NCBI GenBank assembly: GCA_000091205.1 | Contig: AP006494.2 | Strand: one strand, 5' to 3' | DNA: 64,000 nt | Source: Cyanidioschyzon merolae | Taxonomy: Eukaryota | Part shown: piece by piece, positions 8,327 to 60,219 of the stretch | Position numbering within the stretch: position 1 is the stretch's first letter | Layout: each line of letters starts with the position of its first letter | Notes under the pieces: model-generated | What the model was told of the DNA's origin: nothing | The model's database searches: none | Seen by the model: the letters and a program-made list of their open reading frames with translations, nothing else | Program-made: the position numbers and the translations under genes

Positions 8327-10376
8327 GGTTTTTGATTTGCGCGCTCATTTCTCTCCCCAGTTTCCTGCAGCTACACGTTTGGGAACAAACATGGCTCACC
8401 CTGTGAGTCTTCACTGGTTAAGACGGACGGATGACGTAGCACTTCACCGGGACGCTATCAATTCCGTGGTTTCAGTGCAATCGAGTGAATCGCAGCCTCA
8501 AGACGAGCTGTTGCTGTCAGAGAGTCGCGCTGGTGCTACGGCTTCGACGTTGGGAACGTCATCAAAGCCTTCGTTAGCTGAAGTTTCAACCGGAATTAAG
8601 CCGCAAACCAATATACAACGTGACTCACTTCGCTTACCTGAAACAGAGCGAGAGTATGAAAAGAGATCGCGTTCGAGCCAGTGGGCGAATGGAGACCTGA
8701 GTTTTCCCGAGAGAGAATGCCCGACTGTGGAAGTGAAACCTCGTTTCAGGCGAAGAATCATTTTTGGTGAGAGAAGGCAGTACGCGTTCTTTCAGGATGC
8801 TTTGTTTCCAGCTCTGTCTGACGCACCAGAGACGAGAGGTGCTATGGCCGATTCGCCCTCCGCGGACACTCCAAAACCCGCCTCCCTTGAAAGCTGTTCA
8901 GAAAGGGGAAACGGAGCCGCTTTGCACAAGACGAGAGACTCGTGCGACGTCGTTCCTGCGTTTCGGGAAAGCATTTGTTTGGGAGCTGATGCGAACAGAC
9001 TGAGCGCCGTATCCGGAGACTCTCTCAAGCTCGAAGATGATTCGAACCAGAAGCATTTTTCACTGGATAGCTCCCTAGGCCCGAACTCAAGGGCTGCCTT
9101 ATCTGATGAAATTAGCTTCCCAGGGGCACGGACGCATAGCTCAGAAGCGCTGCAGTTGGAGCTGAACAAAAGCGCCGAGAATGCGGAGTGCTCAACGATC
9201 TACGTCTATCTTTACCCCGATGGTTATTCATTTTCAGAAACAGGGTACCCTAGGTTCAGTTTCGATGGAAACTCTGATCGAATACTCTTTTGCTTAGATC
9301 AGGGTGTCCTGCCCTCTAGTTTTGAATTTCGCGCTCCGAAACGGGCTGACAGCATCAATAACGTTCGTGACGCGGTCATACTGGATTATACGCGGCCGAA
9401 GCCAAAGAAATTCCACATTACTTTGAGGCCTGACTATTTGAATATATGCCTCGCAATTGCAGAAAGTCCATACGCTCGGGAACTAAGACAAGCAGATAGA
9501 GTGCTGCAGTTGGAAGCAGAGCTACTTAAGCTTTTGCACGTTTTGGATGACTTGGAGCCTCGACTTGACCATCAAACGCTGTCGTCTCATACAGAATCCG
9601 CGCAGGTTCTTAACTTTGCTAGAACTGCAAGGCAGCATGTGGAGGTTACATTCACTAGATCACTTCCGCTTTTGCGGCTGTTTCTGACGAAACGTATGAA
9701 CAGAAATCGTCGATCCAGAGGAAAAGCAAACATCGATCTTGCATCACAGATGCTGCTTCTCGTGGCTGGCAACGAAAACCTTAACCGTTATCGTCGTACG
9801 CGAATGCGCAGCGTCACCGGTCTTCCAAGGCAGACTTCTTCCCTAGAGCTGAAGACGCCGGCAGACATTGCGGGCGCCCAACCTCTTCGAAGACCTAGTT
9901 TCTCAAACGTCATCGGGCGTTTGCTTCGGCAGCTTCGTTTCGTGTTGCATCGAGCGAGTGCAACCACGATCCAGCCAAAGTCCAACGAAGCCCCAGCTGT
10001 GACGAATGCGGACGAACCCTCTGGACAGTTGGATACCCCTACTGCGTCTGATCGAAACGCCCGACCTGCATCGAGATCGGGCGAACCAAGAATTGTATGT
10101 CTACTCGATATCATCGTCCGACCGCAACGCGGATGCGAATGTGTCATCCGCAGAGGTCAGGAAAAGAATCGAGATTTGGACATTCTACGCATCCCCGTTG
10201 GATCGGAAAGAAACGCTCACATTTTTGCGAACCAGTTTCGGCGCCTCATGCGTGGGGAAGGTTTCGTATGCGAGCAGGACTTGACGCTTCCGAGCGAGAA
10301 CAGGGTCACAGGGGAAGATAACGCTTCGGAGACGCCAGCGGCGGACGCTAGTGCTTTGCGGTTAACGAACGAGTAA
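8307..10376 (+). CDS. Hypothetical Ser-rich low-complexity protein (689 aa), orphan
   Basis: 2.07-kb uninterrupted ORF with ATG start, statistically unlikely by chance at this GC content. No recognisable domain. Its ATG (8307-8309) lies inside the inner end of IR1-L. Confidence 0.5.
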   Translation: MRRKRSLVFDLRAHFSPQFPAATRLGTNMAHPVSLHWLRRTDDVALHRDAINSVVSVQSSESQPQDELLLSESRAGATASTLGTSSKPSLAEVSTGIKPQTNIQRDSLRLPETEREYEKRSRSSQWANGDLSFPERECPTVEVKPRFRRRIIFGERRQYAFFQDALFPALSDAPETRGAMADSPSADTPKPASLESCSERGNGAALHKTRDSCDVVPAFRESICLGADANRLSAVSGDSLKLEDDSNQKHFSLDSSLGPNSRAALSDEISFPGARTHSSEALQLELNKSAENAECSTIYVYLYPDGYSFSETGYPRFSFDGNSDRILFCLDQGVLPSSFEFRAPKRADSINNVRDAVILDYTRPKPKKFHITLRPDYLNICLAIAESPYARELRQADRVLQLEAELLKLLHVLDDLEPRLDHQTLSSHTESAQVLNFARTARQHVEVTFTRSLPLLRLFLTKRMNRNRRSRGKANIDLASQMLLLVAGNENLNRYRRTRMRSVTGLPRQTSSLELKTPADIAGAQPLRRPSFSNVIGRLLRQLRFVLHRASATTIQPKSNEAPAVTNADEPSGQLDTPTASDRNARPASRSGEPRIVCLLDIIVRPQRGCECVIRRGQEKNRDLDILRIPVGSERNAHIFANQFRRLMRGEGFVCEQDLTLPSENRVTGEDNASETPAADASALRLTNE

Positions 10377-10554: not shown

Positions 10555-11709
10555 CTAAGCGCTTCGAACGGGCAATTTCCATGACGCGGCGATTTCATCG
10601 AGCGCAGGCTGAATTTCTTGATACTGAAACTTAAGACCGCTTTGCAACAGACGCTTTGGGAGCACGCGTTGGCCCTGGAGCACAAGTTCCGCCGCTTCGC
10701 CAAGAATCAGTTGAAGTGTGAAACTGGGTACCGGTAGCCAGTTCGGGCGTTTGAGCGCTCTTGCAAGTGAATCGCAAAACTTTTGAAACTGAACTGGGGT
10801 TGGCGCCGTGACGTTGTACACACCTTGAAAATCGGGTGATTCCAGCTCGTGCATGATAATGTTCACCAGATCTTGAATGTGTATCCACGATATCCACTGG
10901 CGTCCAGATCCAATCGTTCCACCTATGAACAAGTTAAAGAGCGGAAGCATTCGGCTCAAAGCCCCCCCATCCGGGCCGAGTACTATGCCAAATCGATTGA
11001 TGACTGTCCGGATTCCCGCATCTTGAGCAGCTGCTTCCCACTTCTTTGCGACTGATGCTAAAAAGTCCGTCCCTATCGAAGGCGAATCCTCGTCGAACGT
11101 TTCTACTTCAGATGTACCGTAGTAGCCAACAGCAGATGTGGAGATGAGAACCTTTGGTTTCCTATCAGCATGATGAACAGCTCGGACGAGCTGAAGGGTC
11201 CCGTTCACGCGGCTCTCCAGAATGCGCCTCTTGCGCTCTGCCGTCCACCTACCTTCTGAAATGGGTTCGCCAGCTAGATTAATTATAGCATCACTTCCAG
11301 CCACTGCCTCCACGACCTCCTTTGCCGGCGCATCGGCAGCAGTCGCTTCAAAGTATATTGCTTCCACCTTATAGTTAAAGGTTTTGCGGGCTTTCTCAGT
11401 ATCACGCGCCAAAAGCGTCACCGCCTTCCCCGAACCGAGAAGTTTGCGCACAAGCGCCCGGCCAACAAAGCCTGAGCCGCCACTCACAAGCACGGTTTTC
11501 GCCCTAGTATCGGATGCCTCAATGCGTAGACTATTTTTGAAAGCCCGTCGAGCACAGCGATTTGACGATTGAAGACAGTTTCTAGGCTCTTGTTTGCACC
11601 AGTCACCTACGAAGCTCGAGACACGAGGACATGCTCCAGCAAAAGCAGGCGCGTGCAAAAGCGGTCGCTGCTGATTTGGCAGAGCCAACAAGCAAAAGAA
11701 AGACAACAT
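10555..11709 (-). CDS. SDR39U1: Epimerase family protein SDR39U1 (NAD-dependent epimerase plus DUF1731, YfcH-like)
   Basis: N-terminal Rossmann motif TVLVSGGSGFVGRALVRKLL. Length (~384 aa) and C-terminal region typical of the TIGR01777 family. ATG start. Confidence 0.8.
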   Translation of the reverse strand: MLSFFCLLALPNQQRPLLHAPAFAGACPRVSSFVGDWCKQEPRNCLQSSNRCARRAFKNSLRIEASDTRAKTVLVSGGSGFVGRALVRKLLGSGKAVTLLARDTEKARKTFNYKVEAIYFEATAADAPAKEVVEAVAGSDAIINLAGEPISEGRWTAERKRRILESRVNGTLQLVRAVHHADRKPKVLISTSAVGYYGTSEVETFDEDSPSIGTDFLASVAKKWEAAAQDAGIRTVINRFGIVLGPDGGALSRMLPLFNLFIGGTIGSGRQWISWIHIQDLVNIIMHELESPDFQGVYNVTAPTPVQFQKFCDSLARALKRPNWLPVPSFTLQLILGEAAELVLQGQRVLPKRLLQSGLKFQYQEIQPALDEIAASWKLPVRSA

Positions 11710-11823: not shown

Positions 11824-13225
11824 GGAAGCTACTTCCATGTCAGATCAAAACAGAACACGGAATTCTTCGCTCTCCTCCTGTATTTCCGTTCTTTCCCCAG
11901 CTTTTTCTAGATGAACAGCCTTGACCTTCGAAGCACATCAATGCGGACTTACGCACTCTTTCCTTGGTTTACGATACTGGTCATCTTTTCGGAGCAGTCC
12001 CTTCCTGTCGCTAGAATCCGTTAATTCGTCGAAACCACGATGATTCGCGACGCCCTCAACCCCACGTCAGTAAAATAACCGATACCATTATGCAGTTCTT
12101 ATCCAAAGGCCTCCATTCCTCCGCTTTTCCTGCATCAAGCATATCCAAATCATGAGTTCCCCAAGCTTTCGGTCTGACTGTTTCAAGGCAGCTCGCGGGC
12201 ACAGGGACGCGCTCCGCTGCATTGACGATGATAAGTACTCGACCAGGTTCCTTGACGACTTGATCAGGAGCTCATGCCAAAAGTTCACAGATTGTGTCAT
12301 ATCCGATGATAATGTCCGTCAGAAAGACAAACCATGTTGCCTTGTGTCCATCGATGTCGCGGGATTCCACAACAGCCTGATACCTTTCATGGGATATGCT
12401 CCTGGAGGCTCCCGTCGCTTCGCTTTGCATCCAAAATGGTCTCGGACTCGGACTTTGCTCATCTCAATGATCGCTTCCAATGGGTACTATGCAACTCTAT
12501 TGCACGAAGGGAGCGCGGATGGAGAGAATATTCTGGACTCGATCTCCAGCGTCGATATTTCTTCTGGTCCTTGTTTCACACTAGACGACATCGCTCTCCA
12601 CAAATCCGCTATCGAATGGGACAATGTGCGCCTACGCGCCCGTTGGACAGCGTACTCGCCGAGTTTGTCGCCTAGAAGAAACCCGTCGTCGTGCGGTGCA
12701 GCACTGGTTGCAGATGTCGCGAAGAGCATCCAGGGAGGACTCTGTGCCCTTCGGGGGCATGTATCGAGCGCTGAATCAAGTGCTCACGCGCCACGCGGTG
12801 GCGCTTGGAGGATGAGTTGTGGTGAGGATAAGGTCTCATCTACGCATAGCCTTGTGTTGCCGTTACGAAGCGAGCACAGGGGCTGTATACAAAGAAGGTG
12901 AATATGGCAAATGAAGCATACATTGCAACATTTGCCAATGCACGAAATGCGTCGACAATATCCCCGTGCGGTGTAATCGGGACTTGCACTGCCATCAGCA
13001 TCCATCGACATCAGATCTGGGAGTTGATGAGGCACGAGAGACCGGTGTACTCATAGCCAGAGACAAGATAAGGGAAAGGTAGGCAGTCTCGGAACAAGCC
13101 GCCAACAGCAGGTATCGATGATTGTGCGAAGAAACCCCAACTCGGAAGCGGGCGCTGGAGGAAAATCGATGGACCCGTAAAAATCTTGTCTGACAGAGTG
13201 TGGTGCGTTAATCGAGAAGAGTGAA
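11824..13225 (+). mobile_element. IR1-R: ~1.40-kb copy of a degenerate DDE_3 (IS630/Tc1-like) element, inverted partner of 6936..8326
   Basis: See IR1-L. Inner end 11824 lies 115 bp upstream of the epimerase ATG (11709, minus). Outer end near 13225. Confidence 0.75.
12152..12901 (+). pseudogene. DDE_3 (IS630/Tc1-mariner-like) transposase relic, 249-aa ORF, catalytically degenerate
   Basis: LVSIDVAGFH (DExGF-like first Asp box, Glu replaced by Val). GYAPGGSRRFALHPKWSRTR (YGWapkGerp-like). CFTLDDIALHKSAIEW (vlDNasiHKs second Asp box). WTAYSPSLSPRRNP (LPPYSPDLNPIE box with the catalytic Glu lost). N-terminal HTH region absent or disrupted. Confidence 0.7.
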
Positions 13226-13299: not shown

Positions 13300-14700
13300 A
13301 GCTACAGATCCCCGATCTCCACGCACGCTCGGTCTTGGCTCTCTTCCAATGGTTTGTAGGCGCAAATGTTCGGCGACATCGACGTCCGCCGTTTGTGGGC
13401 TCTTGGGTGCTTACTTCGCAGACAGATTTGGTTCTCCGTTACATGCTAATTATTGTTAGCACAACGAAAAACGATCTACCACATTAGGGTGCATGAGAAC
13501 GCACATGTCCAGACGCCTCCCAACCATTTTTGACAGGGTGCTTGCTATCAGTTCCAGCTGCTCCTTGTACACCTCTGGAATGGTAGGCTGACCCGCAAAG
13601 TCGGATCTTGTCAGCTCTTCAGGTCTCGTCCTCATAACCAAACATCGTCTGAAATTGTTGGCGGCGATGATGGCCCGGTTCAGGAACTCCAAGCGTTTAT
13701 TGCCACTGGTGGAACGGACTTGTGCAAGGAGTCCTCGAACTCGCGCCCTCTGTGCCATTCGCTGCTCTTTCAGCTCGCCGTGCTTTCCTATCGTCCAAGT
13801 GCTCCGCTGGCTTCTCTCGATCTCGAACTCGTGAAGTGTATAACCCATTGCATTCCTTATTTTCGAAAATGAACGCACTCGTTTATGCCGTTGGGTAGGG
13901 ACCTTCTCGGATGGATAAGGACTTATGGAAGAAAGACAAATACGCCCCGGTATCACCGTGATGAACGCGTCAGCGATTCACCCAGTAGAGCGATCGTAAA
14001 GATTAAGATAGGAGACACTGCTCGAGGAGATGAAGCATAGAGCGTACGGAGGAATGCAAAGCAGGCCAAGACCTATAGAACTGGCAAGAGCTCGAACGTA
14101 AAGGATATGGTGTAACATCACAGTTTCCAATAGAGGGAAGTCCCAAGATGTCAGGGAAGAGTCATCTATGATTCGACGAATTGGGTGCTGCTGTATGGGC
14201 CTTGTCTACGAGCGAGACTGACGCCGCAAAATATACCCACTGCAGCTAGAATAGATAATGACTTCGTTCTCATCGAGTTCGATCGTACATACAACGGGCC
14301 TGCTCCCAGAATACCCATCTGCGCTCCGACCGTTTCTCCCGAAGAGAGTCTCATGGGCTGGAAAAAGAAACCGAAATCCATGCGCATTATACGAATAGGG
14401 ACGTTCGCGGAATTCAGTAGTTGGCATATCTGTGGAGATCACCGTCATTGAAATTGGACTTTTTATGCGACTGTGTCCGAATGTTCTCAGGACCACACGA
14501 AAAGGCCTTTTGAGAAACAGAGGTGTTTGCGTTGGATACGGTCTTCGCTTTTGCCTTCTCTAAGGTGATCAACGAGCCGTTTTCTACAGTTGACCCCCAG
14601 CACGATTTGAGCACGTCGTTTTCTGGCGCAGAGCGTGTATACTTCTTTCTTACAGTGTTTGACAATCACTCGAGTCCTGCAGTGTGACTGCCCTGAAGGA
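13300..14700 (-). mobile_element. TnpB/Fanzor-like (RuvC-type OMEGA nuclease) element relic, copy A, pseudogenised
   Basis: ORF 13456..13956(-) contains RVRGLL..STSGNKRLEFLNRAIIAANNFRRCLVMRTRPEELTR, a DRDxNAAxNI-like RuvC-III motif after a degenerate zinc-ribbon region. Upstream frames (14414..14665(-), 14185..14451) parallel copies C and B. Shared nucleotide blocks ctatgattcgacgaattgggtgctgctgta (14166) and ..tacttctttcttacagtgtttgacaatcactcgagtcctg.. (14600s). Confidence 0.5.
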
Positions 14701-15094
14701 TGAATGTAGTCCTCCTTGCACTTCTCAGTAAAGAGTATATCCTATGGGCAACTCGTCAACGATCTATGCTGTACACTGCATCATGATTTCGATCATCTGC
14801 TTTACACTGGGAAAAAGCATAGATTACGCATAGCGGGGGTGAAATATATTTGATTTGAAAGACTAATAAGATCGTTGTCTGGTGCCGATTGCAATTAAAT
14901 TTGAGTAATATTTCCACCCAACACTGGGTTCGCGTGAAGGTTGCGAGAAGGGCTACAAGAGTTAAGCTCTTTCGAACTGGAGATATTCACCGTGGATCTT
15001 TCAGGTCCAAAAGGATATAAAAGAGCGCTTGAAGACATCTCTTCGTGCTTGCTATATTTGAAAGAGTCAAATATGAGAACTAGTATTTAGTTTA

Positions 15095-16822
15095 CATTCA
15101 GAGTACTAAATTCTTGAACAAGTCTACCGGCAGGTTATTTTTGTGTTTGGTTGTTTTTCCCACAGGTATTGAACAATAAGGTTGTCCGTTGGTGAGAGAA
15201 TGGCGGTGGATAGAGTTCATGCCATCGCCGCTAGCATACCGACACGGATCTTACTTGTACAAGTCAGTCATTTTACATTCAGCAGGTGCACCAGCGACCC
15301 TTGTGGCAGTGCTTGTTCTGAACATTGCGTACCCAAAATACAACGTACTACAATGTATATATTCGACAATCTTCTGATTCGCTCATTGTATCACATAGAT
15401 CCTCTGAGAAATACCATCTGCGAAGCCACATGATGTGGGGCTTTCACATCTTTCATACTAGCGGTGATAAACAGACACCGATGAACAGAAAAGTGCGCTG
15501 CGATGCACGACGATTGCGTGTTGCCAGCAGATTGTCGAATTCGCAGCGCAAGGCGAAGGCCCGCTGCAGGACTGACTGGCGTTCGTGTCAGTCGGTGATG
15601 CTCCATTTTGCAGAAACGATCAACTCGTATATATGTCCTCACATAGGGGCGACACGAAGTTCTTAAAGAGGCGACAAGCGACATTGAAGGCGGCATGAGC
15701 CCTAGCGGTGATTTCTTCTGGTGATCTCTTACAAATCGCCGAACGAAAGGACATTCCAATACCTCATCCTCCGGCGAGGCACCTCCTGGATTCCTTCACC
15801 CACATTCCTTGGTAATGCCCTTAGACAGTATTGCTTTCCCTCGCTAAACAGCGCTCAGGCAGTATGCAGCTGTATCTGTCGTTGAGCTGCCCTACTTTTC
15901 CAGAGATCGGCAGTGTCGGGAGTCGGGCCCCAGAGACGCCAAGAGGCGTACCGACCAATGAAATGACAGCGTCCGGACCCGTCACGACGCTCTGAGACTC
16001 GTGTCGAACGGAGTGGATGCTGTGTGAGATCCATTCATAGACACGTGCGCGTCCACGTGGCTCGTGGGGACGCTCCCTCGCAGATGCACTTGAGACGTCG
16101 CTGTGGTCATCAACAGCTTGGCTCTCCGGAGGCAGGAAGCGTGCATTCTCCAGCATATTCAATGAGTTAGCAACGTATCGGACCGATAACTCGCAACGCG
16201 TGGAGGTAGCGAATGGCGCTGGACGTGCACTCGCGAGCAACGGCTGCACTCATGCTCGGTCGGCGAGAGCGTGCAACCACAGCAGGAATCGATTCTTCAC
16301 GGCTCCCGTGGATGCGTTCAGAGCGACAAACACGCGTGACCAGCGCGAGTGCGCACAGTGACCGGTAGAGAAGAAGAGTGTGAAACAGAGCTGCATGCAC
16401 GTGGTGGTGTACGGTGAGCTGATTGAGCGCCGGATGGCGAGAGAATCGAGCGAGACGTGCTTGCTGTGATGCGCTTCAACAATCCAAAATGCGCTCAGGC
16501 ACGTCCTGCACCGAGACTCGAACGCCCAATCGGTATCTGGAAATGTTTCGTGCGTTCGGAGCGTCCAGCGGTTTGTGTCATACGTACATTCGAGGCAACT
16601 GTTTCATACTGAGTGTGGGGATTGTGCTGGAATGCTGGAGACTTGCGCTGAGAAAATCAGAGGCTGGCAGCAATAGGAGCGGATTCCGGCATGTAGCAGG
16701 GCAATAGTATGGTACGGTTAGGAATCCAGACAGGATGTGGCACAGCGTATATAGAGAGGAACCTGTTTCCCATGGTAGTTGGTAGACGATGCTAGTGTTT
16801 CTCTCTTTAAGATGCTATTGAT
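15095..16822. repeat. IR2-L: 1.73-kb arm of a near-perfect inverted repeat (partner 23683..25410)
   Basis: Reverse-complement identity; coordinates sum to 40505 with no indels over all checked stretches. Four ORF-track ORFs are identical on opposite strands and a fifth differs by one residue (AAGL/AGGL). Boundaries are where similarity decays (15095/25410 outer, 16822/23683 inner). Confidence 0.85.
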
Positions 16823-17463
16823 TATAGAACAGTTTACAAAGCTTGGGTTCTGAAATTCTCACGTTGATTTGTTCATTAATTGTCTTGTCGACTCCAACGA
16901 GCTCTTCGAGTGCTGTGCTAAATGAATCGATACTTCTTCAAGACGAAACATAGCATAGTGCTTTCAAGATGCGAGGTCTAGTACACTATTCATGTACTTC
17001 TGCATACAATGGAACTCCAAGACCGTGGGCACTTTTGGAGGTATCTGATTTCATTTTCGAAGTACCCCTGGCGGCGAGGGTTGGTGTGATCCGATTCAAT
17101 ACCCGTTCTAAAACGTCATTCAGGAGAAAGTCTCGCGAGAGTATTTCAGGTGTTTGATCGGCTAGTTGCTCATGGGTGTTATTGGGTATGCAGCTGTCCC
17201 AGTGAAATCGTCTGTGAGCTCTCGAAACAACTAAAGAAGCGGAGTACTTCGTAGAGTCCCATGACGAAAAGCATGCCTTGTCAAGCTGTGTCCGATGCTT
17301 CCCTTCTTCTTTGCTCGGTAACCGGTGCTTTATACACAAGAAGTTCATGTTTTCTAATTCAGTCAACGATGCCCATTAAAAACCAGGGAAGCATACTGAA
17401 AACTAGCGCATTCTAGCATGGATAAACAATTATTGTTTGGAGCGAAACGACTTGAGAAAAAGT

Positions 17464-23682: not shown

Positions 23683-25410
23683 CTCAATAGCATCTTAAAG
23701 AGAGAAACACTAGCATCGTCTACCAACTACCATGGGAAACAGGTTCCTCTCTATATACGCTGTGCCACATCCTGTCTGGATTCCTAACCGTACCATACTA
23801 TTGCCCTGCTACATGCCGGAATCCGCTCCTATTGCTGCCAGCCTCTGATTTTCTCAGCGCAAGTCTCCAGCATTCCAGCACAATCCCCACACTCAGTATG
23901 AAACAGTTGCCTCGAATGTACGTATGACACAAACCGCTGGACGCTCCGAACGCACGAAACATTTCCAGATACCGATTGGGCGTTCGAGTCTCGGTGCAGG
24001 ACGTGCCTGAGCGCATTTTGGATTGTTGAAGCGCATCACAGCAAGCACGTCTCGCTCGATTCTCTCGCCATCCGGCGCTCAATCAGCTCACCGTACACCA
24101 CCACGTGCATGCAGCTCTGTTTCACACTCTTCTTCTCTACCGGTCACTGTGCGCACTCGCGCTGGTCACGCGTGTTTGTCGCTCTGAACGCATCCACGGG
24201 AGCCGTGAAGAATCGATTCCTGCTGTGGTTGCACGCTCTCGCCGACCGAGCATGAGTGCAGCCGTTGCTCGCGAGTGCACGTCCAGCGCCATTCGCTACC
24301 TCCACGCGTTGCGAGTTATCGGTCCGATACGTTGCTAACTCATTGAATATGCTGGAGAATGCACGCTTCCTGCCTCCGGAGAGCCAAGCTGTTGATGACC
24401 ACAGCGACGTCTCAAGTGCATCTGCGAGGGAGCGTCCCCACGAGCCACGTGGACGCGCACGTGTCTATGAATGGATCTCACACAGCATCCACTCCGTTCG
24501 ACACGAGTCTCAGAGCGTCGTGACGGGTCCGGACGCTGTCATTTCATTGGTCGGTACGCCTCTTGGCGTCTCTGGGGCCCGACTCCCGACACTGCCGATC
24601 TCTGGAAAAGTAGGGCAGCTCAACGACAGATACAGCTGCATACTGCCTGAGCGCTGTTTAGCGAGGGAAAGCAATACTGTCTAAGGGCATTACCAAGGAA
24701 TGTGGGTGAAGGAATCCAGGAGGTGCCTCGCCGGAGGATGAGGTATTGGAATGTCCTTTCGTTCGGCGATTTGTAAGAGATCACCAGAAGAAATCACCGC
24801 TAGGGCTCATGCCGCCTTCAATGTCGCTTGTCGCCTCTTTAAGAACTTCGTGTCGCCCCTATGTGAGGACATATATACGAGTTGATCGTTTCTGCAAAAT
24901 GGAGCATCACCGACTGACACGAACGCCAGTCAGTCCTGCAGGGGGCCTTCGCCTTGCGCTACGAATTCGACAATCTGCTGGCAACACGCAATCGTCGTGC
25001 ATCGCAGCGCACTTTTCTGTTCATCGGTGTCTGTTTATCACCGCTAGTATGAAAGATGTGAAAGCCCCACATCATGTGGCTTCGCAGATGGTATTTCTCA
25101 GAGGATCTATGTGATACAATGAGCGAATCAGAAGATTGTCGAATATATACATTGTAGTACGTTGTATTTTGGGTACGCAATGTTCAGAACAAGCACTGCC
25201 ACAAGGGTCGCTGGTGCACCTGCTGAATGTAAAATGACTGACTTGTACAAGTAAGATCCGTGTCGGTATGCTAGCGGCGATGGCATGAACTCTATCCACC
25301 GCCATTCTCTCACCAACGGACAACCTTATTGTTCAATACCTGTGGGAAAAACAACCAAACACAAAAATAACCTGCCGGTAGACTTGTTCAAGAATTTAGT
25401 ACTCTGAGTA
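23683..25410. repeat. IR2-R: 1.73-kb arm of a near-perfect inverted repeat (partner 15095..16822)
   Basis: See IR2-L. Outer end is 52 bp upstream of the HIG1 ATG (25462). Confidence 0.85.
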
Positions 25411-25461
25411 TAACGCTGAGCACCTCCCTAACTATACTGGGAGCGAGCTGTTTTTCGAGAC

Positions 25462-40487: not shown

Positions 40488-40779
40488 GAAAATACGGGTT
40501 TTAGCGGTGCCCTCGTGGGTGCCCCGTTTGAACTAGAACAATCGATCTTTTTGATACAATCGTATACAGGGGTCTTACAATTTTTCAACTCGATCCTGTT
40601 TCACCTCCGTAGTGTTTTGCAGCAGGAGATCGAAATCTCTGTGCAATGTACCCTATAGGTCTTATACGAATCGCTTGTAGGATATATGCTTTACCATATG
40701 GTGCAAGGAGGCTTGGATTCCTCCAGCGGCTCAGTCATACCACAGTACTCTGATGCTCGAGGAAAACTGAAAGTAGCAA

Positions 40780-42060
40780 GTATATGCGCTCTGTGCGAAC
40801 TCCGATATTCTCAAAGACTGCTTGCGATCAACGGCACGGAAACAACCCGCTGATCACCTTAAGGAATGCAAGTATGATGACAGTAGCCGCCCTAGGTGTC
40901 TATGTTTCTCAACAGCATGTTCGTGTAGTCTGTAAAACACTGGGACAGAATCACAAAAAGTCTTGCTAAACGCACTGCCATCTTCCACCGGAATCGCAAC
41001 GACAGTGTTCCTGGAACGTCGCTATCCGTTTAAAGCGTAGGGATTTCGGTTTTGGTTTTACAGTCGACGAGACTTTTTTCGGGCGAAATGGACAGTACAT
41101 ATTTGAGTATTCGCGGAGAAGCGAGCCCGTTGTATACCCGACGGAACCCGAAGAGAACTCGGATATCATTATCTGTTCTAACTGCAGTGCATATACTTGG
41201 CGGCCTCAGTCCCGCCCTTAGACAAGGCTCAAATAATAGCACGCAATACGCCGAATCATAGAAGACTCTTCCCTGACATCTTGCGACGTTATTGTATTGG
41301 AAAACGTGGCATTGCGCCATTCCACTTGCGTTCGAGCTTTTGCAGAATCTATCGGGGTGGAGCTGTTTTTCATTCCGCCATTTACCCCGTGGCTCATCTC
41401 CATCGGAGGAGTGTTTTCTATCGTGAAACGGAATGACCGTTTCGCTGGGTGGATCGCTGAAGTGTTCAGCACACGGTAACACCGCGGCTATTTGTCTTTC
41501 TTCCACAAGTCCTTTTCCCTCCGGAAAGGTCTTCACGCCAGGACATCAACAAGTGCATTCATTCGAAGAAGTAAAAAATCCAAGAGAAAGCTATGGACAT
41601 GGAAGGCGAGGATCCTGGAAGCCGTGTGTCGCCGGCTTCGACCAAAAACGAAAAAATCCTCTCCTCGCCGACCATTGAGCGAAGAAGAGCAAATAACGAA
41701 GATGGAAAAGGGAGATATGCGAGAAATGGTGTTTGCCCAGCGGGACGATGACGAGGCTGTAGGCACACAAAGGGCATGAGTTTGAGGAGTCCTCGCAAAG
41801 ATGCGTTCAACCAGCGGCTAGAACCGCATGGAGTTCATGAACCGAGACTCGAAAGCTGCTACGAATATCAGGAGATATGCGGTGCTGAAGACGAGACCCG
41901 CGGGGCTGACAAGAGCGAGCCAACTTTCTGGGACAGCCTCTCAGACTCGAAGTGTGCAAGGAAAAGCTGAAGCCGATAGCAGGGACCCGGTCAAAGAAGG
42001 CCGGAACGCGTCTGTGAGTAAATATATACATTTATCCTCATTGTTCTTGGGACATTTTTG
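40780..42060 (+). mobile_element. TnpB/Fanzor-like element relic, copy B (inverted relative to copies A and C)
   Basis: 41828..42061(+) reads EFMNRDSKAATNIRRYAVLKTRPAGLTR, the RuvC-III D-x-NAA-x-NI motif. 41433..41678(+) ICLSSTSPFPSGKVFTPGHQQVHSFEEVKNP parallels copy A ICLSSISPYPSEKVPTQRHKRVRSFSKIRN. 41030..41536(-) EPCLRAGLRPPSICTAVRTDNDIRVLF parallels copy A GPCLRARLTPQNIPTAARIDNDFVLIEF. 41533..41766(-) RILAFHVHSFLLDFLLLRMNAL parallels copy C RVLEFHIHSFPLHFFLLQMNAI. Confidence 0.5.
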
Positions 42061-51285: not shown

Positions 51286-52640
51286 CGAGTATATATATAC
51301 CTACCCGCAGACGCCTCCCAGCCTTTTTACCTCTCGACTGTTATATCGGCTTCAGCCTGGCCTCGTAGATCCTGAGCCTGAGTCGCTGCCTCACAGCATC
51401 GGATCGCGTCAGCGCCGTAGGTCTCGTCTTCATCGGCTGAAATCGATGGTGGCGTTGAGGTCTCGGTTCACGAACTCTGTGCACTCATGGCCTCTGGTGG
51501 AACTCATCAGTGCAAGGAGTCCTCGAACGCATGCCCTCTGTGCGACTAGGGTCTCGTCATCGACCCGTCGGGCAAACGCTTTTTCTCGCCTATCTACTGC
51601 CTTCCTCTCCTTCGTGCTTTTCGTCACTTGCTACTTTTTGCCTTCGATGGGTGATGAGAAGAGGATTTTTCCGTTTGTTTTCGGCAGCGGGCGATACCGG
51701 CCCTCCAGGGTCCTCGAATTCCATATCCATTCCTTTCCCTTGCATTTTTTCTTACTGCAAATGAATGCAATTCCCTACGCCTTTAGGTGGGGACATTTCT
51801 GGAGGGGGGTGGCTTTTGCGGAAGAAAGATGAATTATAGCCCGCTGTCGCCGTGTGCTGAAAGCTTCAGCGATTCGCACAGTTGAGCGATCTTTACCTTT
51901 CTCGATATGAAAGACTTATCTGATGAGGTTTAATCACGTAGAGTACGGAGAAATGAAAAGCAGCTCTACCCCAACACATTCGTCGAAAGCTCGAACGCAA
52001 GAGGAATGGTGAAATGCTGCGTCTGACCGTAGAGGGACGCCGCCAAAGGTCAGAGGAAAGTCTTCTATGATTCGACAAAGTGGGTGCTGTTGTACGTGCC
52101 TGCTCTACGGGTGAAGCTGAAGGAGCCAAATCAATCCACCGCAGCTCGAACAGAGGATGATGTTGTCGTTCTCATCGTGCTCGATCGGACCTAGAACGAT
52201 CTCCCTCTCCGCGAATGCCCAAACATGCACCGGCCGTTCCGTCCGACGCACGTCTCATCGACTAAAACGCACGAACTGACGTCTCTCTGCTTTATACGGA
52301 TAGCGACGTTTCAGGAACGCTGTCGATGCAATCACGATGGACGATGCCCTTGGGTGAGTTAGGACTCTTCTGCGACAGTGTCCCAGGGTTTCCAGGACCA
52401 TAGGAACAAGCTGTTGAGAAAACGGAGACACCTGTGACGGCTATGACCATATCCTTTGCTTTTCTTAAGATGATCAACGTGTCGTTTTCTACCATTGACG
52501 GCAAGCAGTCTCTAAAAATATCTGTATTTGCCACAGAGCGCACATACTTGTTTCTTCCATTGTTCCTCAATCATCAGAGTCCTGTGGTATGACGGACCTG
52601 AAGGAGGAATGCTGTCCTCCATGGACACTTCAGTAACGAA
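51262..52640 (-). mobile_element. TnpB/Fanzor-like element relic, copy C
   Basis: 51430..51627(-) RACVRGLLALMSSTRGHECTEFVNRDLNATIDFSR (C-x-x-C then D-x-NA-x-I). 52292..52570(-) MVIAVTGVSVFSTACSYGPG (RuvC-I-like hhIGVDLGVxxFATLSDG with Asp lost). Blocks at 52066 (ctatgattcgacaaagtgggtgctgttgta) and 52480-52630 align to copy A. The 3' tail (rc of 51262-51440) aligns to the tails of copies B and D. Confidence 0.5.
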
Positions 52641-52924
52641 CATACCCCACAGGCAATTCGTCTAGAATCTGCAGAGTATATTACATAGGGATCCCGATCT
52701 GCTGCGATGCAACGCACCAGGAGTGAAACAGAATCGAGTTGACAGTCTCCAGTTCTGGGACGGGGATAACCAGCGGCTATGGTCTAAGCTGTTGCAGCTG
52801 CGACTGCGTTCCAAATACCTATAAGCTCGGAGGCCGCCCTGGAACGTGCTACTGAATGAGCGCTTTAGAGGTAAGCTGAATGATTTGTTACGAGTCTGTT
52901 CCCTGTTGCGCTCTGTAGCGCCTC

Positions 52925-56488: not shown

Positions 56489-58462
56489 TTTTAGAGAACT
56501 TTCAGTAAGAGTTCTTGAATATGTCCCCAATGGAGCAGGTCGAAGTTTTTCCTCGTCAATCCAGTGACGTGCATTGCTGCGTCCGTGGATCACATTGAAA
56601 GAGAAAGATCCAAAACTTGAAACGTATTTGATTTAAGCATGCCAAACCTGAGAAAAGGAGAAGCGTGGAGACTTGTACGTAAGCATTGAATGCTCGATTT
56701 CGGTCATTCGACGAGCCCTCCTTTGGGGGCATCGCAAATCATCTCGGATCCCGCAAATGAAAGAGTTCCGGCGGCTACAAGTCCAGGGAGCCACCCAAAA
56801 ACGCCTCCGAGAATCCCAAAACTATTATTGAATTCGTAAGCACGCATGGCTTCACTTCGAATGCCGAGGCCTTACATCCGAACAGAGTTCGAGAAATCGA
56901 AAACCATGAAGAGAGCGAGCAGTGCTCTCTTCCATTTTGATAGAACCCGGGTCATCGATGCCAAAAACTCGGTGCAGCACTTTCGGATTGTATGCAGCTA
57001 TGCACCCAGTTGCTTTCGAGAAAGCGTCCATTATGCTGCACTCTACCCTAAGGTTCCATTACCCATATTTTCTCTCGGAGGTAATGGTCGTTTTGTACGT
57101 TCTATGTGCGCCAAGTGCATGCCGTGAACATCCGCTGTATGGCCTAAACCGCTAGTGCGGATGCAGCATCGGGACAGTACGGCTTTGCCTTACAACTGAG
57201 GTCGTCGGCTCGAGGCGTGCTGCTCTTGACACAAGGTCGGGATTCATAATCATTCTGGGAGCCTGCAATCTGCGCTGATAGACGTCCTGCCTGCGACAGC
57301 GCGAAGCGATATACTAGGAGATGACTGCATCGTGGGCGACGCCCAGACGCAGCACATCCGCTCCTTGCCCCAGTATAAACGGCTTCGCAGACGAGCTGCT
57401 CAGGTCTCACTATAGCGCAAGCCACTGCCGAGTCTCACTGTAGCGCGAGCCAGGCAGCCTCGTCCGGGTTGCGGGATCTCCCTACTGGAAGGTATACTTT
57501 CGCGAATGCGGCAAACTTTTTCCTCTTCTCACTTTTACCGAAGAGGTGGGGATTGTTATCTCGTCGCTAGTTTGTGCCTAGTTTCTGTTCTTTTTTCTAT
57601 AATGCGCTCGATACGTGCACATCCATATCTCGCAGGCATTAGACACGACGCATATCTCACCGCTGATGGGAAACGCGACCCCTCTCAGATGTAGACTCGC
57701 ACCGGAAACACGCGAAGCAGCATGTGGAGCATGCACTGTTGCTGGGGACGAGGTCCATGTACGACAACATCATGGTCTACCGATATTAAGCGTGTTGCTC
57801 TAACGCATGCTTTCTATTTGCGTTCAAGTCCTAGCAAAATATAGTGTTTGTTCGGAATTCTGCTTCAGCCCACATGCGAGCGTGTCCAAGAGTTTTTTCG
57901 TTTTTTTAGCATACGCGTTCGAAGTGCGCTCACTTTCAAAAATCAAAATTCAAGGAAAAGTTACGGACATACAAGTCCAGGATCCTGGAGGCCCAGTGTC
58001 GCCAGGTTCGACACGAAATGAAAAACAATGCTGAGTCCAGAGGAACAGGAGAAGACGAAGAAGCAGATGCAGGAGGCCAGGCGTCAAAAGCTGCATGAGA
58101 AGCGACAGTATGACGAGATGGCAATGGAAGCCTTTCTTCTACGTCAAATAAATGATCCGTACGAACAAAAGTTGCGAGAGGCTATCAGAAACCGTGTCGA
58201 GTCGTACTCCATGAGTATTATCAAGGCTTCGTCTTGGCTAATGCGTAAGGTGAGTAAGATGTACCATGACGTTACGGGCATCAAAATAGTCGAGGTTCCG
58301 GAGGAATTTTTCAACAAGACATTTGCTCGCCACCCCATGTTTGGCACAGAGTAGGCGTCGACGAGAAATGAGCGAGTGCATGCCCTCTACGAAAACCACG
58401 CTGAGTACCGCTTCAACGGTATTCGATACAGGGGTGATTCGCGTATTCACGAATAGGGAGCA

Positions 58463-59137
58463 ATGCAGTGCGCTACGAACCTGAGGCACCAAATGATTAT
58501 GAACCTCGAACGTTTCGTGATTCGCTCCATCTTTGCGCTGTACCCGGGCCTCCCTCGTAACGGGATATGGAACACTACCAATGCCATCACAAACGGTTGC
58601 CAGCATGAAGATGAGATCGAATTCTTCAGCAAGCAGACATTGCACATTATCAGGAATGAAGATTCTGTTATCCGTGGGGCTGTTCAAGAGCACCGTGCGG
58701 TTCTTTGGCTGGTCAACCAAATAGAAAAGGTATCAGATATGAGAAAAGATGGAGAAGGATGTCGTCCCCTCATCCTCTGCTTTTTCGTGTTTTTGGACCG
58801 AGAAATCGAACGCAAGGCGGAGATGGAGCTGGGTGTGGGTAAAAAGGAAGAAGCAGAGAAACGGAAGGTTGCGCTTCTGAGGAAGCGCCTCAGTGTCGTT
58901 CCGTTGTTCAACATCAAGTCACATTTTGTGACAATCGACTCCGCAGCCCTTTACGTCACCATGAAGGAGATCAGTCCGGAGTTCGATGTGAGGAAGATAG
59001 AATTCACCGGTGAAAACCGGGAGACGTACTGTAAGAATATCTTTGATTTCAAACGTCTGAAAAAAATACGAAAAAGATATTCACAGGGACGATCGACAGC
59101 GATGGAGTATCCATATGCGTACCCTTTCGGCGCTTGA
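58463..59137 (+). CDS. Hypothetical protein (224 aa) in an AT-richer stretch
   Basis: ORF only. The competing antisense ORF 58238..58720 makes strand assignment uncertain. Confidence 0.2.
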
Positions 59138-59599
59138 AGACAGATTGTCCTATTCCACCCTCGATATCGCCCGTGACGAAGCATGAGGATAGGAAGGAGG
59201 CGAATCTGGCGACGCAGGAGGTGCAGGAGAACGACTTTGTTGGAGGCGCGGGCCCTAGGAACATGAATATCATAACCACCGCTGCACCCAAGTGTGCGGA
59301 AGATGGAATCGACGGCAACATACGTTAGAAAGACATGCGTCTGTTAAAGCTCTCAAGAGCGAGATATTACCGAGATTCGGGAATAATGAATACGAGGAAA
59401 AAGACTGAGACGTGAAATGCAGGAGGGAATGAGCACTTGGAGGCGCTCAGCCCGGTACCTCTCAACGGAGCGGACTTTCAAGCTTTTCTAGAGTTCATGG
59501 AAACTCGTGCTGCTCATGACGAGGAGCTGTGGAAAGAGTGTACAGAGCACCGGCGGGCTCGTCAGCGTATGAACCTGTATAGAGGGGGCAGCATGCATT

Positions 59600-60185
59600 C
59601 GCCAAGATCATGAGTCAGTTGAGCGCCCTCAAGGAAGACGAGAGTCAAAAGCTCGTAGTAGCATATCTAGCAGGGCGCTGGGCACCCAACAAAGGTAGCA
59701 TACCCACTTCGTCGACGCGTGCCTACGTGAAGTGCGCACGCCGTTTTTTCCCAGTACCGATGGATGACTTTCGAAAATCCGACCCACACTACGAGTTGGG
59801 GGTGCATACTTCAGAGCTTAGGGATGGAGCGCAAGCAGCAGTGCACGAGAGCGATAGAAAAGTACGAAGAGCTGACGGAGCAGGAAACTGCACCGAGGAC
59901 CCGAGTTCGAGGTCTCCTTCCAACGGCGCGTTCAACCAGCAGCAATTAAATCAAGGAGTTCGTGAACCGTGACTTTCATGCTGCTATCAATTTAAGACGA
60001 TGTTCGGTGTTAAAGACGAGACCCGTAGGGCTGACACGCGCGATCCAACTCTGTGGGGCACCCTCTTAGTCTCAAGATGGTACAAGGAGAAGCAGGAACC
60101 GATCGCAAGCGCCTTGTCAAAAATGGCCGGAAATCGTCTTTGAGTGGGCGTGTCTAAATATACTCCATGATTGTAGAACGTTTAT
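59600..60185 (+). mobile_element. TnpB/Fanzor-like element relic, copy D (3' part, frameshifted)
   Basis: 59764..59949 frame gives TRVRGLLPTARSTSSN; manual translation of 59950-60056 gives EFVNRDFHAAINLRRCSVLKTRPVGLTRAIQLCGAP. The 3' tail aagacgagacccgtagggctgacacgcgcgatccaactctgtgggg...caaggagaagcaggaaccgatcgcaag...ggccgg aligns at ~75% to copies B (41880-42050), A (rc 13400-13650) and C. Confidence 0.5.
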
Positions 60186-60219
60186 CGTTTTGCAGAACAA
60201 GCTGAACAAACCTCACGGG

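What the first reader, a model, noticed from the sequence alone, without database searches (positions are those of the whole stretch)
13300..14700. A dispersed family of pseudogenised TnpB/Fanzor-like (RuvC) elements in a eukaryotic nuclear locus (4 copies in 64 kb)
Copies at 13300-14700(-), 40780-42060(+), 51262-52640(-) and 59600-60185(+) share nucleotide blocks and, in shifted frames, peptide relics. One relic reads TRVRGLL-x-STSxN followed by EF(V/L)NRDxxAAxN(I/L)RRCxVLKTRPxGLTR. This fits the zinc-ribbon plus RuvC-III D-x-NAA-x-NI motif at the C-terminus of TnpB/Fanzor/Cas12-type nucleases. Further upstream, copy C reads VIAVTGVSVFSTACSYG, resembling the RuvC-I IGVDLGVxxFATLSDG block. All copies carry stops and frameshifts and lost catalytic residues, so the family is dead here. 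Its density, about one per 16 kb, suggests it was once very active. Eukaryotic TnpB homologues (Fanzors) are known from scattered protists, fungi and algae. A relic family of this density in a compact intron-poor genome would be notable.
Basis: partly seen in the sequence, partly recalled or inferred. Interest (0 to 1): 0.75.

Follow-up and report, generated by a model that had tools for sequence, protein, structure and literature searches.

The report
Dead Fanzor1 transposon copies, already described
The repeats are real but decayed copies of CMe-1, a Fanzor1-carrying transposon family of the red alga Cyanidioschyzon merolae that was described in 2013. Three of the four copies are mostly a dead Tc1/mariner-type transposase gene with only the tail of the Fanzor gene attached.

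Summary
The window is Cyanidioschyzon merolae 10D chromosome 12 (nine exact protein matches).

**The repeat family is real.** It has four members at 67-74% nucleotide identity.

**The Fanzor reading of the C-terminal relic is correct.**
- A Fanzor1 profile built here hits solved Fanzor1 structures (E=3e-23, 4e-16, 2e-11).
- The same profile hits every copy in the window (E=5e-10 to 1e-50).
- hhalign of the relic tails against this profile gives 98.3% probability.

**The anatomy needs correcting.**
- "Copy D" is the 3' end of a near full-length element at 56956-60203. It is 78.8% identical to the published 3169-bp CMe-1A consensus and carries at least 7 frameshifts and 6 in-frame stops.
- Copies A, B and C are about 1.45-kb chimeras. 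Each is a complete pseudogene of a Tc1/mariner-type DDE_3 transposase, followed by the Fanzor ORF start region and its last ~80-120 codons.
- The supposed RuvC-I peptide lies in the N-terminal DNA-binding (helix-turn-helix) part of that transposase.

**The family is already known.** Bao & Jurka 2013 (PMC3627910) reported about 150 CMe-1A copies in this genome.

**The one possibly new point** is the transposase-Fanzor1 linkage. It is supported by intact two-gene elements in metagenomes.

The parts
56956..60203 (+). Near full-length CMe-1A element, a pseudogene.
   Evidence: A global alignment to the published 3169-bp CMe-1A consensus covers consensus positions 1-3169 at 78.8% identity. There are at least 7 frame-shifting indels and 6 in-frame stops. 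P0018 residues 3-747 align by tblastn. The Fanzor1 profile scores E=1e-49 and 1e-50.
57012..57681 (+). 5' module of the full-length copy. It corresponds to TE-N2_CMe (consensus 55-726). A 99-bp insertion follows at 57679-57778.
   Evidence: blastn gives 80.2% identity over 677 nt, E=6e-172. The equivalence with TE-N2_CMe comes from PMC3627910.
57963..60160 (+). Fanzor1 ORF relic of the full-length copy. The start ATG is now ACG. RuvC-I D is now G (GADPGN>GAGPRN). RuvC-II E is now D (VDEFRTS>MDDFRKS). The RuvC-III D is kept (NRDFHAA).
   Evidence: Read from the sequence against the consensus ORF. The catalytic positions follow the alignment to SpuFz1 and PpFz1, and D383/E541/D606 in PMC11423790.
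13507..14801 (-). Copy A: chimeric deletion derivative (transposase pseudogene plus Fanzor tail).
   Evidence: blastn to copies B and C. The content is resolved.
14032..14776 (-). Copy A: DDE_3 (Tc1/mariner-type) transposase pseudogene.
   Evidence: tblastn of P0306 residues 1-248 gives E=1.6e-14.
13507..13879 (-). Copy A: Fanzor leader (consensus 870-889 at 13860-13879), joined directly to the Fanzor tail (consensus 2743-3086 at 13507-13847). The RuvC-III Asp is lost (NRAIIAA).
   Evidence: blastn to the CMe-1A consensus. The CMe-1 protein residues 607-726 align at 50% identity, E=1.5e-28. Fanzor1 profile E=4.6e-10.
40585..42031 (+). Copy B: chimeric deletion derivative.
   Evidence: blastn to copy C gives 69.9% over 1477 nt, E=2.5e-174.
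40646..41536 (+). Copy B: DDE_3 transposase pseudogene, complete from Met to the C-terminus. It stays almost entirely in one frame, with a few stops.
   Evidence: tblastn of P0306 residues 1-295 gives E=4.6e-27, and P0305 residues 1-262 gives E=7.5e-27. Pfam DDE_3 scores E=1.4e-4, below threshold.
41573..41770 (+). Copy B: Fanzor ORF leader and first ~47 codons (MDMEGEDPGSRVSPA..., matching MEKEVEDPGGPVSPA of CMe-1).
   Evidence: blastn to consensus 885-969 at 80%. The extension to about codon 47 is my reading of frame f2 against the CMe-1 protein; this part is inference.
41771..42014 (+). Copy B: Fanzor tail (consensus 2841-3083) with NRDSKAATNIRRY.
   Evidence: Fanzor1 profile E=3e-9.
51291..52742 (-). 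Copy C: chimeric deletion derivative with the same deletion junction as copy B.
51859..52681 (-). Copy C: DDE_3 transposase pseudogene.
   Evidence: tblastn of P0306 residues 1-272 gives E=4.3e-18. The peptide is in ORF 52292-52570.
51302..51772 (-). Copy C: Fanzor leader and first codons (consensus 869-969 at 51667-51772), and Fanzor tail (consensus 2850-3084 at 51307-51528).
   Evidence: tblastn of P0005. Fanzor1 profile E=3.2e-6.
15887..16526 (+). Relic of a second, more divergent Fanzor1 lineage (C-terminal third). It lies inside the left arm of a perfect 1736-nt inverted repeat.
   Evidence: tblastn of P0021 residues 427-639 gives 42% identity, E=1e-26. The CMe-1 protein gives 36%. Fanzor1 profile E=6e-11.
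23979..24618 (-). Identical second copy of the divergent Fanzor1 relic, in the right arm of the inverted repeat.

Best explanation
**What it is.** The window holds dead copies of one known transposon family of Cyanidioschyzon merolae: CMe-1, a Fanzor1-bearing element.
- One copy (56956-60203) is a near full-length CMe-1A element. It has a TE-N2_CMe-like 5' module followed by a 734-codon Fanzor1 ORF, now wrecked by stops, frameshifts and the loss of two of the three RuvC catalytic residues.
- Copies A, B and C belong to a ~1.45-kb non-autonomous derivative. Here the Fanzor module, starting ~37 bp upstream of its ATG, sits directly downstream of a Tc1/mariner-type DDE_3 transposase gene on the same strand. 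Most of the Fanzor ORF has been deleted.

**Inferred history.** The parent was a two-gene cut-and-paste transposon laid out as transposase, then Fanzor1. The same layout is seen in intact metagenomic elements and in Pythium PUl-1.

**Inferred mechanism when alive** (from established work on Fanzor and TnpB).
- The DDE transposase moved the element.
- Fanzor1 was an omega-RNA-guided RuvC endonuclease. Its guide RNA is encoded at the element's 3' end. It cut element-free target sites so that repair would restore or spread the element.

**State now.** Internal deletions arose at least twice, because A has a different junction from B and C. The products spread and have since decayed neutrally. Nothing in this window is functional as a nuclease or a transposase.
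For: **Shown here.**
- Organism.
- Identity with the published CMe-1A consensus and CMe-1 protein.
- The family is Fanzor1. Profile A4 hits solved Fanzor1 structures 9cf0 (3e-23), 8gkh (4e-16) and 9cer (2e-11), with the DPG / DEFRT / NRD motifs aligned to the RuvC triad. 14 of 54 members hit PF07282. hhalign of the relic tails against the family gives 98.3% probability, E=1e-14.
- Transposase identity: intact homologues P0305 and P0306 (E=5e-19 and 1e-17) carry Pfam DDE_3 at 84-88 bits plus Tc3-type HTH domains. They align full-length to copies A, B and C.
- The transposase-to-Fanzor junction at consensus ~869 is shared by A, B, C and by two copies in other contigs (L006, L008). All have different flanking sequence.
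- Deletion junctions differ: A joins consensus 889 to 2743; B and C join about 969-1045 to 2841-2850.
- Intact two-gene relatives exist. L005 has a 298-aa transposase, then a 624-aa Fanzor1 39% identical to CMe-1 (E=4e-150), with 34-nt terminal inverted repeats. L002-L004 have a transposase followed by a Fanzor-like ORF.
- Neutral decay.

**From the literature.**
- About 150 CMe-1A copies, no TIRs, classification unknown, and Mariner-Fanzor1 elements such as PUl-1 (PMC3627910).
- Fanzor is an omega-RNA-guided endonuclease with a D/E/D RuvC triad (PMC11423790).
Against: - No full-length copy with both a transposase and a complete Fanzor ORF was found in the window or in the few related contigs examined. 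The two-gene parent in C. merolae is therefore inferred, not seen.
- No terminal inverted repeats or TA duplications could be identified at the ends of A, B or C.
- The transposase relic is only weakly similar to the PUl-1 Mariner transposase. It scores below Pfam's DDE_3 threshold on its own (22-23 bits against 28.6).
- RNAalifold on the five 3' ends gave no covariation support for an omega-RNA.
Confidence: 0.88

Rival explanations
1. All four copies are plain pseudogenes of one TnpB/Fanzor gene. The upstream 1 kb would be the decayed N-terminal and RuvC-I part of that nuclease.
For: The C-terminal motif is truly Fanzor1. Copy D really is a Fanzor pseudogene.
Against: - The upstream 1 kb of A, B and C has no match to the CMe-1A consensus or protein.
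- It aligns end-to-end with intact DDE_3 transposases instead.
- The Fanzor1 profile hits only the last ~55 residues in A, B and C.
Confidence: 0.03
2. The transposase relic and the Fanzor tail are unrelated neighbours. A CMe-1 fragment happened to land beside an old mariner copy once. That composite was then copied by segmental duplication or mobilised as a unit. No two-gene transposon ever existed in this lineage.
For: - No full-length two-gene copy was seen.
- No TIRs or TSDs were found.
- CMe-1A itself has a different 5' module.
- Bao & Jurka note that Fanzor elements are often chimeric.
Against: - Copy A and copies B/C share the same upstream junction (consensus ~869-870) but have different internal deletion end-points within the Fanzor ORF. 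This is most simply explained by a parent with the whole ORF behind the transposase.
- The closest intact relatives of both genes occur together in the same order, on the same strand and at short spacing (40-223 bp) in L002-L005.
- The flanks of the five or more copies are unrelated.
Confidence: 0.08
3. The copies are not dead. They would be expressed through frameshifting, introns or editing, or retained for a new role, for example as promoter or 5' sequence of the downstream genes or as an omega-RNA source.
For: - The 3' ends of B, C and D point into downstream same-strand ORFs (42187, 51285, 60190).
- The annotated start of the acyl-CoA ligase lies in TE-derived sequence.
- Independent deletions both kept the 3' ~250-340 bp.
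Against: - Stops occur in all frames.
- Substitution rates are equal at all codon positions.
- Identity between copies is only 67-74%.
- There is no covariation signal.
- No annotated gene lies between BAM80783 and BAM80784, where copy A sits.
- C. merolae has very few introns (general knowledge).
Confidence: 0.04

Closest known systems
CMe-1A / CMe-1 Fanzor1 family of Cyanidioschyzon merolae (Bao & Jurka 2013, Mobile DNA 4:12; PMC3627910)
   Same: - Same genome.
- The element at 56956-60203 aligns over the whole 3169-bp published consensus at 78.8% identity. The paper states copies are about 80% identical to the consensus.
- The tails of A, B and C match consensus 2743/2841-3086 and consensus 869-969.
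- No TIRs were found, as published.
   Different: - Copies A, B and C carry a DDE_3 transposase pseudogene where CMe-1A has its TE-N2_CMe-type 5' module, and they lack ~1.8 kb of the Fanzor ORF.
- The paper lists no associated transposase for CMe-1A and calls its classification unknown.
- I could not check Repbase for a separately named entry (for example a CMe-1B or a Mariner_CMe).
Mariner/Tc1-Fanzor1 two-gene elements (for example PUl-1 and PUl-2 of Pythium ultimum, PGv-1; PMC3627910)
   Same: - The order is transposase then Fanzor1, on one strand.
- L005, the intact metagenomic relative, is 3.38 kb with terminal inverted repeats ending TATACTC.../...GAGTATA. PUl-1 is 3.62 kb with 24-bp TIRs and TA duplications.
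   Different: - The window copies have no recognisable TIRs or TA duplications.
- Their transposase is only marginally similar to the PUl-1 transposase: 28% identity over 54 aa around the DDE motif.
- The Fanzor gene is internally deleted.
Solved Fanzor1 nucleases SpuFz1 (8gkh), PpFz1 (9cf0) and GtFz1 (9cer)
   Same: - The family profile aligns with them at E=4e-16, 3e-23 and 2e-11.
- This includes the DPG (RuvC-I), DEF/YxT[ST] (RuvC-II) and NRD (RuvC-III) motifs and the trailing RP..L.R segment.
   Different: - The CMe-1 family has only one Cys (WC.ST) or none (ALVSTT) where SpuFz1 and PpFz1 have a Cys-containing TNB/zinc-ribbon segment.
- The window copies lack catalytic residues and open reading frames.
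- No omega-RNA has been identified.
Prokaryotic TnpB (IS200/IS605, IS607; Pfam OrfB_IS605 and Cas12f1-like_TNB/OrfB_Zn_ribbon)
   Same: It shares the RuvC-III 'RD.NAA.NI' signature. 14 of 54 family members hit PF07282, best E=2e-8.
   Different: - The window relics and the CMe-1-like proteins themselves give only E~0.2 to PF07282 and no PF01385 hit.
- The partner transposase here is a DDE enzyme, not a TnpA Y1 or serine recombinase.

Membership tests
CMe-1A transposon family (Repbase / Bao & Jurka 2013) | Nucleotide homology to the published 3169-bp consensus over its length | tested here: met
   56956-60203 aligns to consensus 1-3169 at 78.8% identity. A, B and C match only consensus ~869-969 and 2743/2841-3086. 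They are therefore derivatives, not full members.
Fanzor1 | Protein homology to experimentally characterised Fanzor1 nucleases | tested here: met
   Profile A4 (54 family members) against PDB sequences hits 9cf0 at 3e-23, 8gkh at 4e-16 and 9cer at 2e-11. The window copies against A4 score 1e-50 to 3e-6. hhalign of the relic tails against A4 gives 98.3% probability.
Fanzor1 | Motif D-X(125,275)-[TS][TS]-X-X-[zinc finger]-X(5,50)-RD, that is, the RuvC D/E/D triad | tested here: not met
   The intact family members have GADPG, VDEFRTS and NRDFNAA. In the window's full-length copy the first D is G and the E is D; only the last D is kept. A, B and C hold only the RD part, and in A it is lost (NRAIIAA). 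The motif is inherited but not intact, so these are pseudogenes.
Fanzor1 | An intact open reading frame encoding the nuclease | tested here: not met
   The full-length copy has at least 7 frameshifts, 6 in-frame stops and an ATG>ACG start. A, B and C lack ~600 codons.
Fanzor1 / OMEGA systems | An omega-RNA encoded at or overlapping the 3' end of the nuclease gene and the transposon end | tested here: inconclusive
   RNAalifold on the five 3' ends gave a covariation term of +1.92 kcal/mol (unfavourable) and few compensatory pairs. There are too few sequences and they are decayed. No RNA data were available.
Tc1/mariner-IS630 (Pfam DDE_3) transposase | Homology over the HTH and DDE domains to bona fide DDE_3 transposases | tested here: met
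   P0305 and P0306 carry DDE_3 at 84-88 bits plus HTH_Tnp_Tc3_2, HTH_23 and HTH_33. They match the relic profile at 5e-19 and 1e-17. They align to residues 1-295 on copy B at E~5e-27. The relics alone score 22-23 bits, below the 28.6-bit cut-off.
Tc1/mariner-IS630 (Pfam DDE_3) transposase | Intact catalytic D, D, E | tested here: not met
   The first D is kept in B and C (VDET). The second D is E or lost (LLENVA, LRSDAA, LLETVM against LLDNVAFHH). The NPIE motif has decayed (LISIG, LNLIR, FISSS).
Tc1/mariner transposon | Terminal inverted repeats and TA target-site duplication | tested here: not met
   No terminal inverted repeats were found in A, B or C. The ends, defined with six copies, show no TIR or TA pattern. 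The intact relative L005 does have 34-nt imperfect TIRs with TA-containing ends.
Prokaryotic TnpB (OrfB_IS605 + OrfB_Zn_ribbon) | Significant match to PF01385 or PF07282 | tested here: not met
   There are no hits for the relics or their consensus. The CMe-1-like proteins score E=0.15-0.23 to PF07282. Only more distant family members reach 2e-8.

The most novel reading that the evidence does not exclude
**Claim.** The ~1.45-kb chimeras (A, B, C, plus copies in related strains) show that the CMe-1 Fanzor1 module was once carried by a Tc1/mariner-type DDE transposon. Bao & Jurka left the transposon class of CMe-1 as 'unknown'.

**Supporting observations.**
- Two independent internal deletions both spared the last ~250-340 bp.
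- This hints that the 3' end, where Fanzor/TnpB guide RNAs and the right transposon end lie, was needed in cis for spread.
- A second, more divergent Fanzor1 lineage (15887-16526) also exists in this genome, although the 2013 survey listed only one Fanzor1 family for it.

**Caveat.** These points may be unreported, but Repbase could not be checked.
Probability: 0.45. Interest if true: 0.35.

Novelty: already known. Interest (0 to 1): 0.22.

Why it matters
- As a discovery it matters little. Fanzor1 elements in C. merolae have been in the literature and in Repbase since 2013, and the copies here are inactive.
- The value of this check is corrective. It identifies the locus, fixes the boundaries, and shows that most of each short copy is a mariner-type transposase pseudogene rather than a nuclease.
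- It also documents a transposase-Fanzor1 linkage. If that is unreported, it would classify a previously unclassified transposon family.
- That linkage would add one more case to the pattern that Fanzor1 nucleases travel with cut-and-paste DDE transposons.

Tried and rejected
- **Pfam on the 166-aa ORF of copy A, on all three frames of A-D, on stitched consensus sequences and on the tail alignment.** No OrfB/TnpB hit; only a sub-threshold DDE_3 hit.
- **PDB sequence search with the tail-only profile (A2) and with the narrow 14-sequence profile (A3).** Nothing relevant was found. Only the broader 54-sequence profile reached the Fanzor structures.
- **Exhaustive search with my stitched relic alignment.** I ran it with A3 instead.
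- **Exact look-up of the purH ORF to identify the organism.** Not on record. This was solved with ten other ORFs.
- **Terminal inverted repeats and TSDs for A, B and C.** None were found.
- **Comparison of the transposase relic with the PUl-1 Mariner transposase.** Only a marginal match at the DDE motif.
- **Conserved RNA structure at the 3' ends.** No covariation support.
- **Search for a full-length transposase plus Fanzor copy in related-strain contigs (L006-L008).** Only the same deletion derivative, separate CMe-1A copies and TE-N2_CMe copies were found.
- **My first manual stitching of the transposase N-terminus mixed reading frames.** The alignment to P0305 and P0306 shows it lies in a single frame.
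- **RIP-like mutation as the source of the stop codons.** Considered but not pursued. Three of the six stops are transitions of the kind RIP produces (CGA>TGA, CAG>TAG, TGG>TGA; the latter two are in a CpA context). The other three are transversions, and GC content is normal.
Full report
**1. Observation**

Self-comparison of the window confirms a dispersed repeat family.
- The repeat finder and blastn link 13510-14801(-), 40585-42031(+), 51291-52742(-) and 59808-60145(+). Identities are 67-74% and E-values reach 1e-174.
- Between copies, all three reading frames match about equally.
- Substitutions are evenly spread over codon positions: 0.28/0.29/0.30 for B against C in the transposase frame, p=0.90.
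- The copies have therefore diverged without protein-level constraint.

**2. Where the window comes from**

- Nine of ten long ORFs are identical to annotated proteins of Cyanidioschyzon merolae strain 10D (BAM80779-BAM80797).
- The locus tags shown are CML184C, CML186C and CML189C. All lie on one 859,119-bp record, chromosome 12 by the CML tags.
- No annotated protein lies between BAM80783 and BAM80784, where copy A sits.

**3. What the C-terminal relic is**

Direct tests failed.
- Pfam found no OrfB/TnpB domain in the ORF of copy A, in any frame of any copy, or in the consensus.
- A profile of the four tails hit nothing in the PDB.

A database search with a stitched consensus found intact relatives.
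- It returned 25 proteins, mostly 425-752-aa proteins from JGI metagenomes.
- They end ...VVAYGAGRW..TPAPTTR.YKECARRFVTIPVDEFRTSYTHHELGC...RRAKVRGLLALVSTTNDGKKRMEFVNRDFNAAINIRRCAVLETRPPELTRENFVGQPLKVELY... and contain FVVGADPGNTNI.
- Some carry only a domain of unknown function, PF26935/DUF8286.

The family was then shown to be Fanzor1.
- An exhaustive profile search found 2256 cluster representatives at E<=1e-3.
- A 54-member alignment of these (A4) hits the solved Fanzor1 nucleases as an HMM: Parasitella parasitica (9cf0, E=3e-23), Spizellomyces punctatus (8gkh, 4e-16) and Guillardia theta (9cer, 2e-11).
- The family's DPG, DEFRT and NRD motifs align to the corresponding segments of those proteins.
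- The SpuFz1 catalytic triad is D383/E541/D606 (PMC11423790).
- 14 of 54 members hit Pfam Cas12f1-like_TNB, formerly OrfB_Zn_ribbon, best E=2e-8.

Scanning the six-frame translation of the window with this profile gives:

| Region | E-value |
|---|---|
| 58040-60051 | 1e-49 and 1e-50 |
| Copy A | 4.6e-10 |
| Copy B | 3e-9 |
| Copy C | 3e-6 |
| 16128-16526 and 23979-24377 (an identical pair) | 6e-11 |

hhalign of the four relic tails against A4 gives 98.3% probability, E=1e-14.

**4. It is a published family**

Bao & Jurka 2013 (PMC3627910) list one Fanzor1 family for C. merolae.
- CMe-1A has a 3169-bp consensus and about 150 copies, each about 80% identical to the consensus.
- It has no TIRs, its TSDs are undetermined and its TE class is unknown.
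- It encodes a 734-aa Fanzor1 protein.
- Its first 635 bp equal another repeat, TE-N2_CMe, which has about 70 copies.

I took the consensus from their Additional file 2 and aligned it to the window.
- Positions 1-3169 align to 56956-60203(+) at 78.8% identity.
- There are at least 7 frame-shifting indels and six in-frame stops.
- The start codon is ACG. The RuvC-I Asp is Gly (GAGPRN). The RuvC-II Glu is Asp (MDDFRKS).

**5. What copies A, B and C really are**

Only small parts of A, B and C match CMe-1A.

| Copy | Match to ORF start region | Match to 3' end |
|---|---|---|
| A | consensus 870-889 | consensus 2743-3086 |
| B | consensus 885-969 | consensus 2841-3083 |
| C | consensus 869-969 | consensus 2850-3084 |

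Their other ~1 kb is absent from the CMe-1A consensus.
- By eye it reads like a Tc1/IS630 transposase (VDETFFGRNG...; ...LLENVALHHS.CVRAFAESIGVELLFIPPY.P...).
- Pfam DDE_3 gives E~1e-4, below the curated threshold.
- A profile of the relics plus P0001 (a decayed copy from a related genome) retrieved intact proteins P0305 (E=5e-19), P0306 (1e-17) and P0307.
- These carry DDE_3 at 84-88 bits and Tc3-type HTH domains.
- They align from Met1 to residue ~295 on copy B (40646-41536, E~5e-27), and on A and C.

The junctions tell the history.
- The transposase-to-Fanzor junction, about 37 bp upstream of the Fanzor ATG, is the same in A, B and C. It is also the same in two copies from other contigs (L006 5461-6868, L008 5293-6774). 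All have unrelated flanks.
- The internal deletion differs. A joins consensus ~889 to 2743. B and C keep the first ~20-47 codons and rejoin at ~2841-2850 (the upper bound is my reading of the translation).
- The simplest history is a parent with the transposase gene followed by the whole Fanzor1 gene, deleted internally at least twice.

**6. Support from living relatives**

The intact transposases sit immediately upstream of Fanzor genes on the same strand.
- In L005 (3384 bp), the 298-aa transposase (102-998) is followed by a 624-aa ORF (1222-3096).
- That ORF scores 721 bits on the Fanzor1 profile and is 39% identical to the CMe-1 protein over 666 aa (E=4e-150).
- The contig ends in 34-nt imperfect inverted repeats, TATACTC.../...GAGTATA.
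- L002-L004 show a transposase followed 40 bp later by a more divergent Fanzor-like ORF (E=6e-14).
- This is the architecture that Bao & Jurka described for Mariner-Fanzor1 elements such as PUl-1.

**7. Mechanism: shown and inferred**

Shown here:
- the homology;
- the architecture;
- the deletions;
- the loss of catalytic residues;
- the neutral decay.

Inferred from established work on Fanzor and TnpB:
- When alive, the DDE transposase moved the element.
- Fanzor1, guided by an omega-RNA encoded at the 3' end, cut element-free sites to favour retention or spread.
- That both deletion classes kept the 3' ~250-340 bp fits a cis requirement for that end.
- RNAalifold on five decayed sequences gave no covariation support, so this remains conjecture.

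**8. Limits**

- No full-length two-gene copy was seen in C. merolae sequence.
- No TIRs or TSDs were found for A, B or C.
- Repbase could not be consulted, so I cannot say whether the chimera is already catalogued.

**9. Verdict**

- It is wrong about the bulk of three copies and about novelty.
- The family is already known.
- The transposase linkage and a second divergent Fanzor1 relic are modest possible additions.

Noticed in passing
window 15092-16827 and 23678-25413: A 1736-nt inverted repeat with 100% identical arms, 6.85 kb apart, brackets several genes (including CML184C and CML186C). Each arm contains a relic of a divergent Fanzor1 lineage. It is ~42% identical at the protein level to P0021 and 36% to CMe-1. 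Perfect arm identity contrasts with the 67-80% identity of the other TE copies. This suggests recent duplication or ongoing gene conversion.
   Followed up: partly
window 6925-8314 and 11832-13224: A second inverted-repeat pair (1394 nt, 99.2% identity) flanks two convergent genes, 8307-10376(+) and 10555-11709(-). Both genes therefore have the same upstream sequence. The arms carry a DDE_3-like ORF (12152-12898, 249 aa, Pfam DDE_3 E=7.6e-5). Copy A lies between this pair and the 1736-nt pair.
   Followed up: partly
window 1-452(-), 7251-7993(-), 12152-12898(+), 27721-28068(+), 47745-48209(+), 56121-56460(-): A second family of DDE_3 transposase relics, distinct from the one in copies A, B and C. 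Members are 32-47% identical to each other at the protein level and 64-70% at the nucleotide level. The window is unusually rich in transposon debris for this compact genome.
   Followed up: partly
window 28392-28457(+): A weak 'DSNAAINILRQ' peptide lies ~300 bp downstream of a second-family DDE_3 relic on the same strand (Fanzor1 profile E=0.44, not significant). It may hint that this family also once had a Fanzor tail.
   Followed up: no
window 51245-51291(-): The annotated start codon (51285) and first ~8 codons of the long-chain acyl-CoA ligase (BAM80796, 775 aa) lie in sequence homologous to the 3' terminus of the TE copies. Orthologues in related strains are called at 694 aa. The annotated N-terminus may be over-extended into the relic.
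   Followed up: partly
L005 1-3384 (Logan SRR32481250): An apparently complete, intact two-gene transposon: a DDE_3/Tc3-HTH transposase plus a 624-aa Fanzor1, with 34-nt imperfect terminal inverted repeats. It is a candidate active Fanzor1 element from an unidentified organism.
   Followed up: partly
L006 9787-11303 and 6887-7520; L008 5293-10078: In related-strain contigs, TE-N2_CMe copies abut a transposase relic and the end of a chimera. In L008 a chimera lies ~0.9 kb upstream of a full-length CMe-1A whose Fanzor ORF is 62.5% identical to CMe-1 in a single reading frame. These families appear to cluster or nest.
   Followed up: no
window 39657-39735 and 39767-39845: A 79-nt direct repeat (76% identity, spacing 110 nt) lies upstream of copy B and within or near ORF 39747-40487(-). 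It is unexplained.
   Followed up: no
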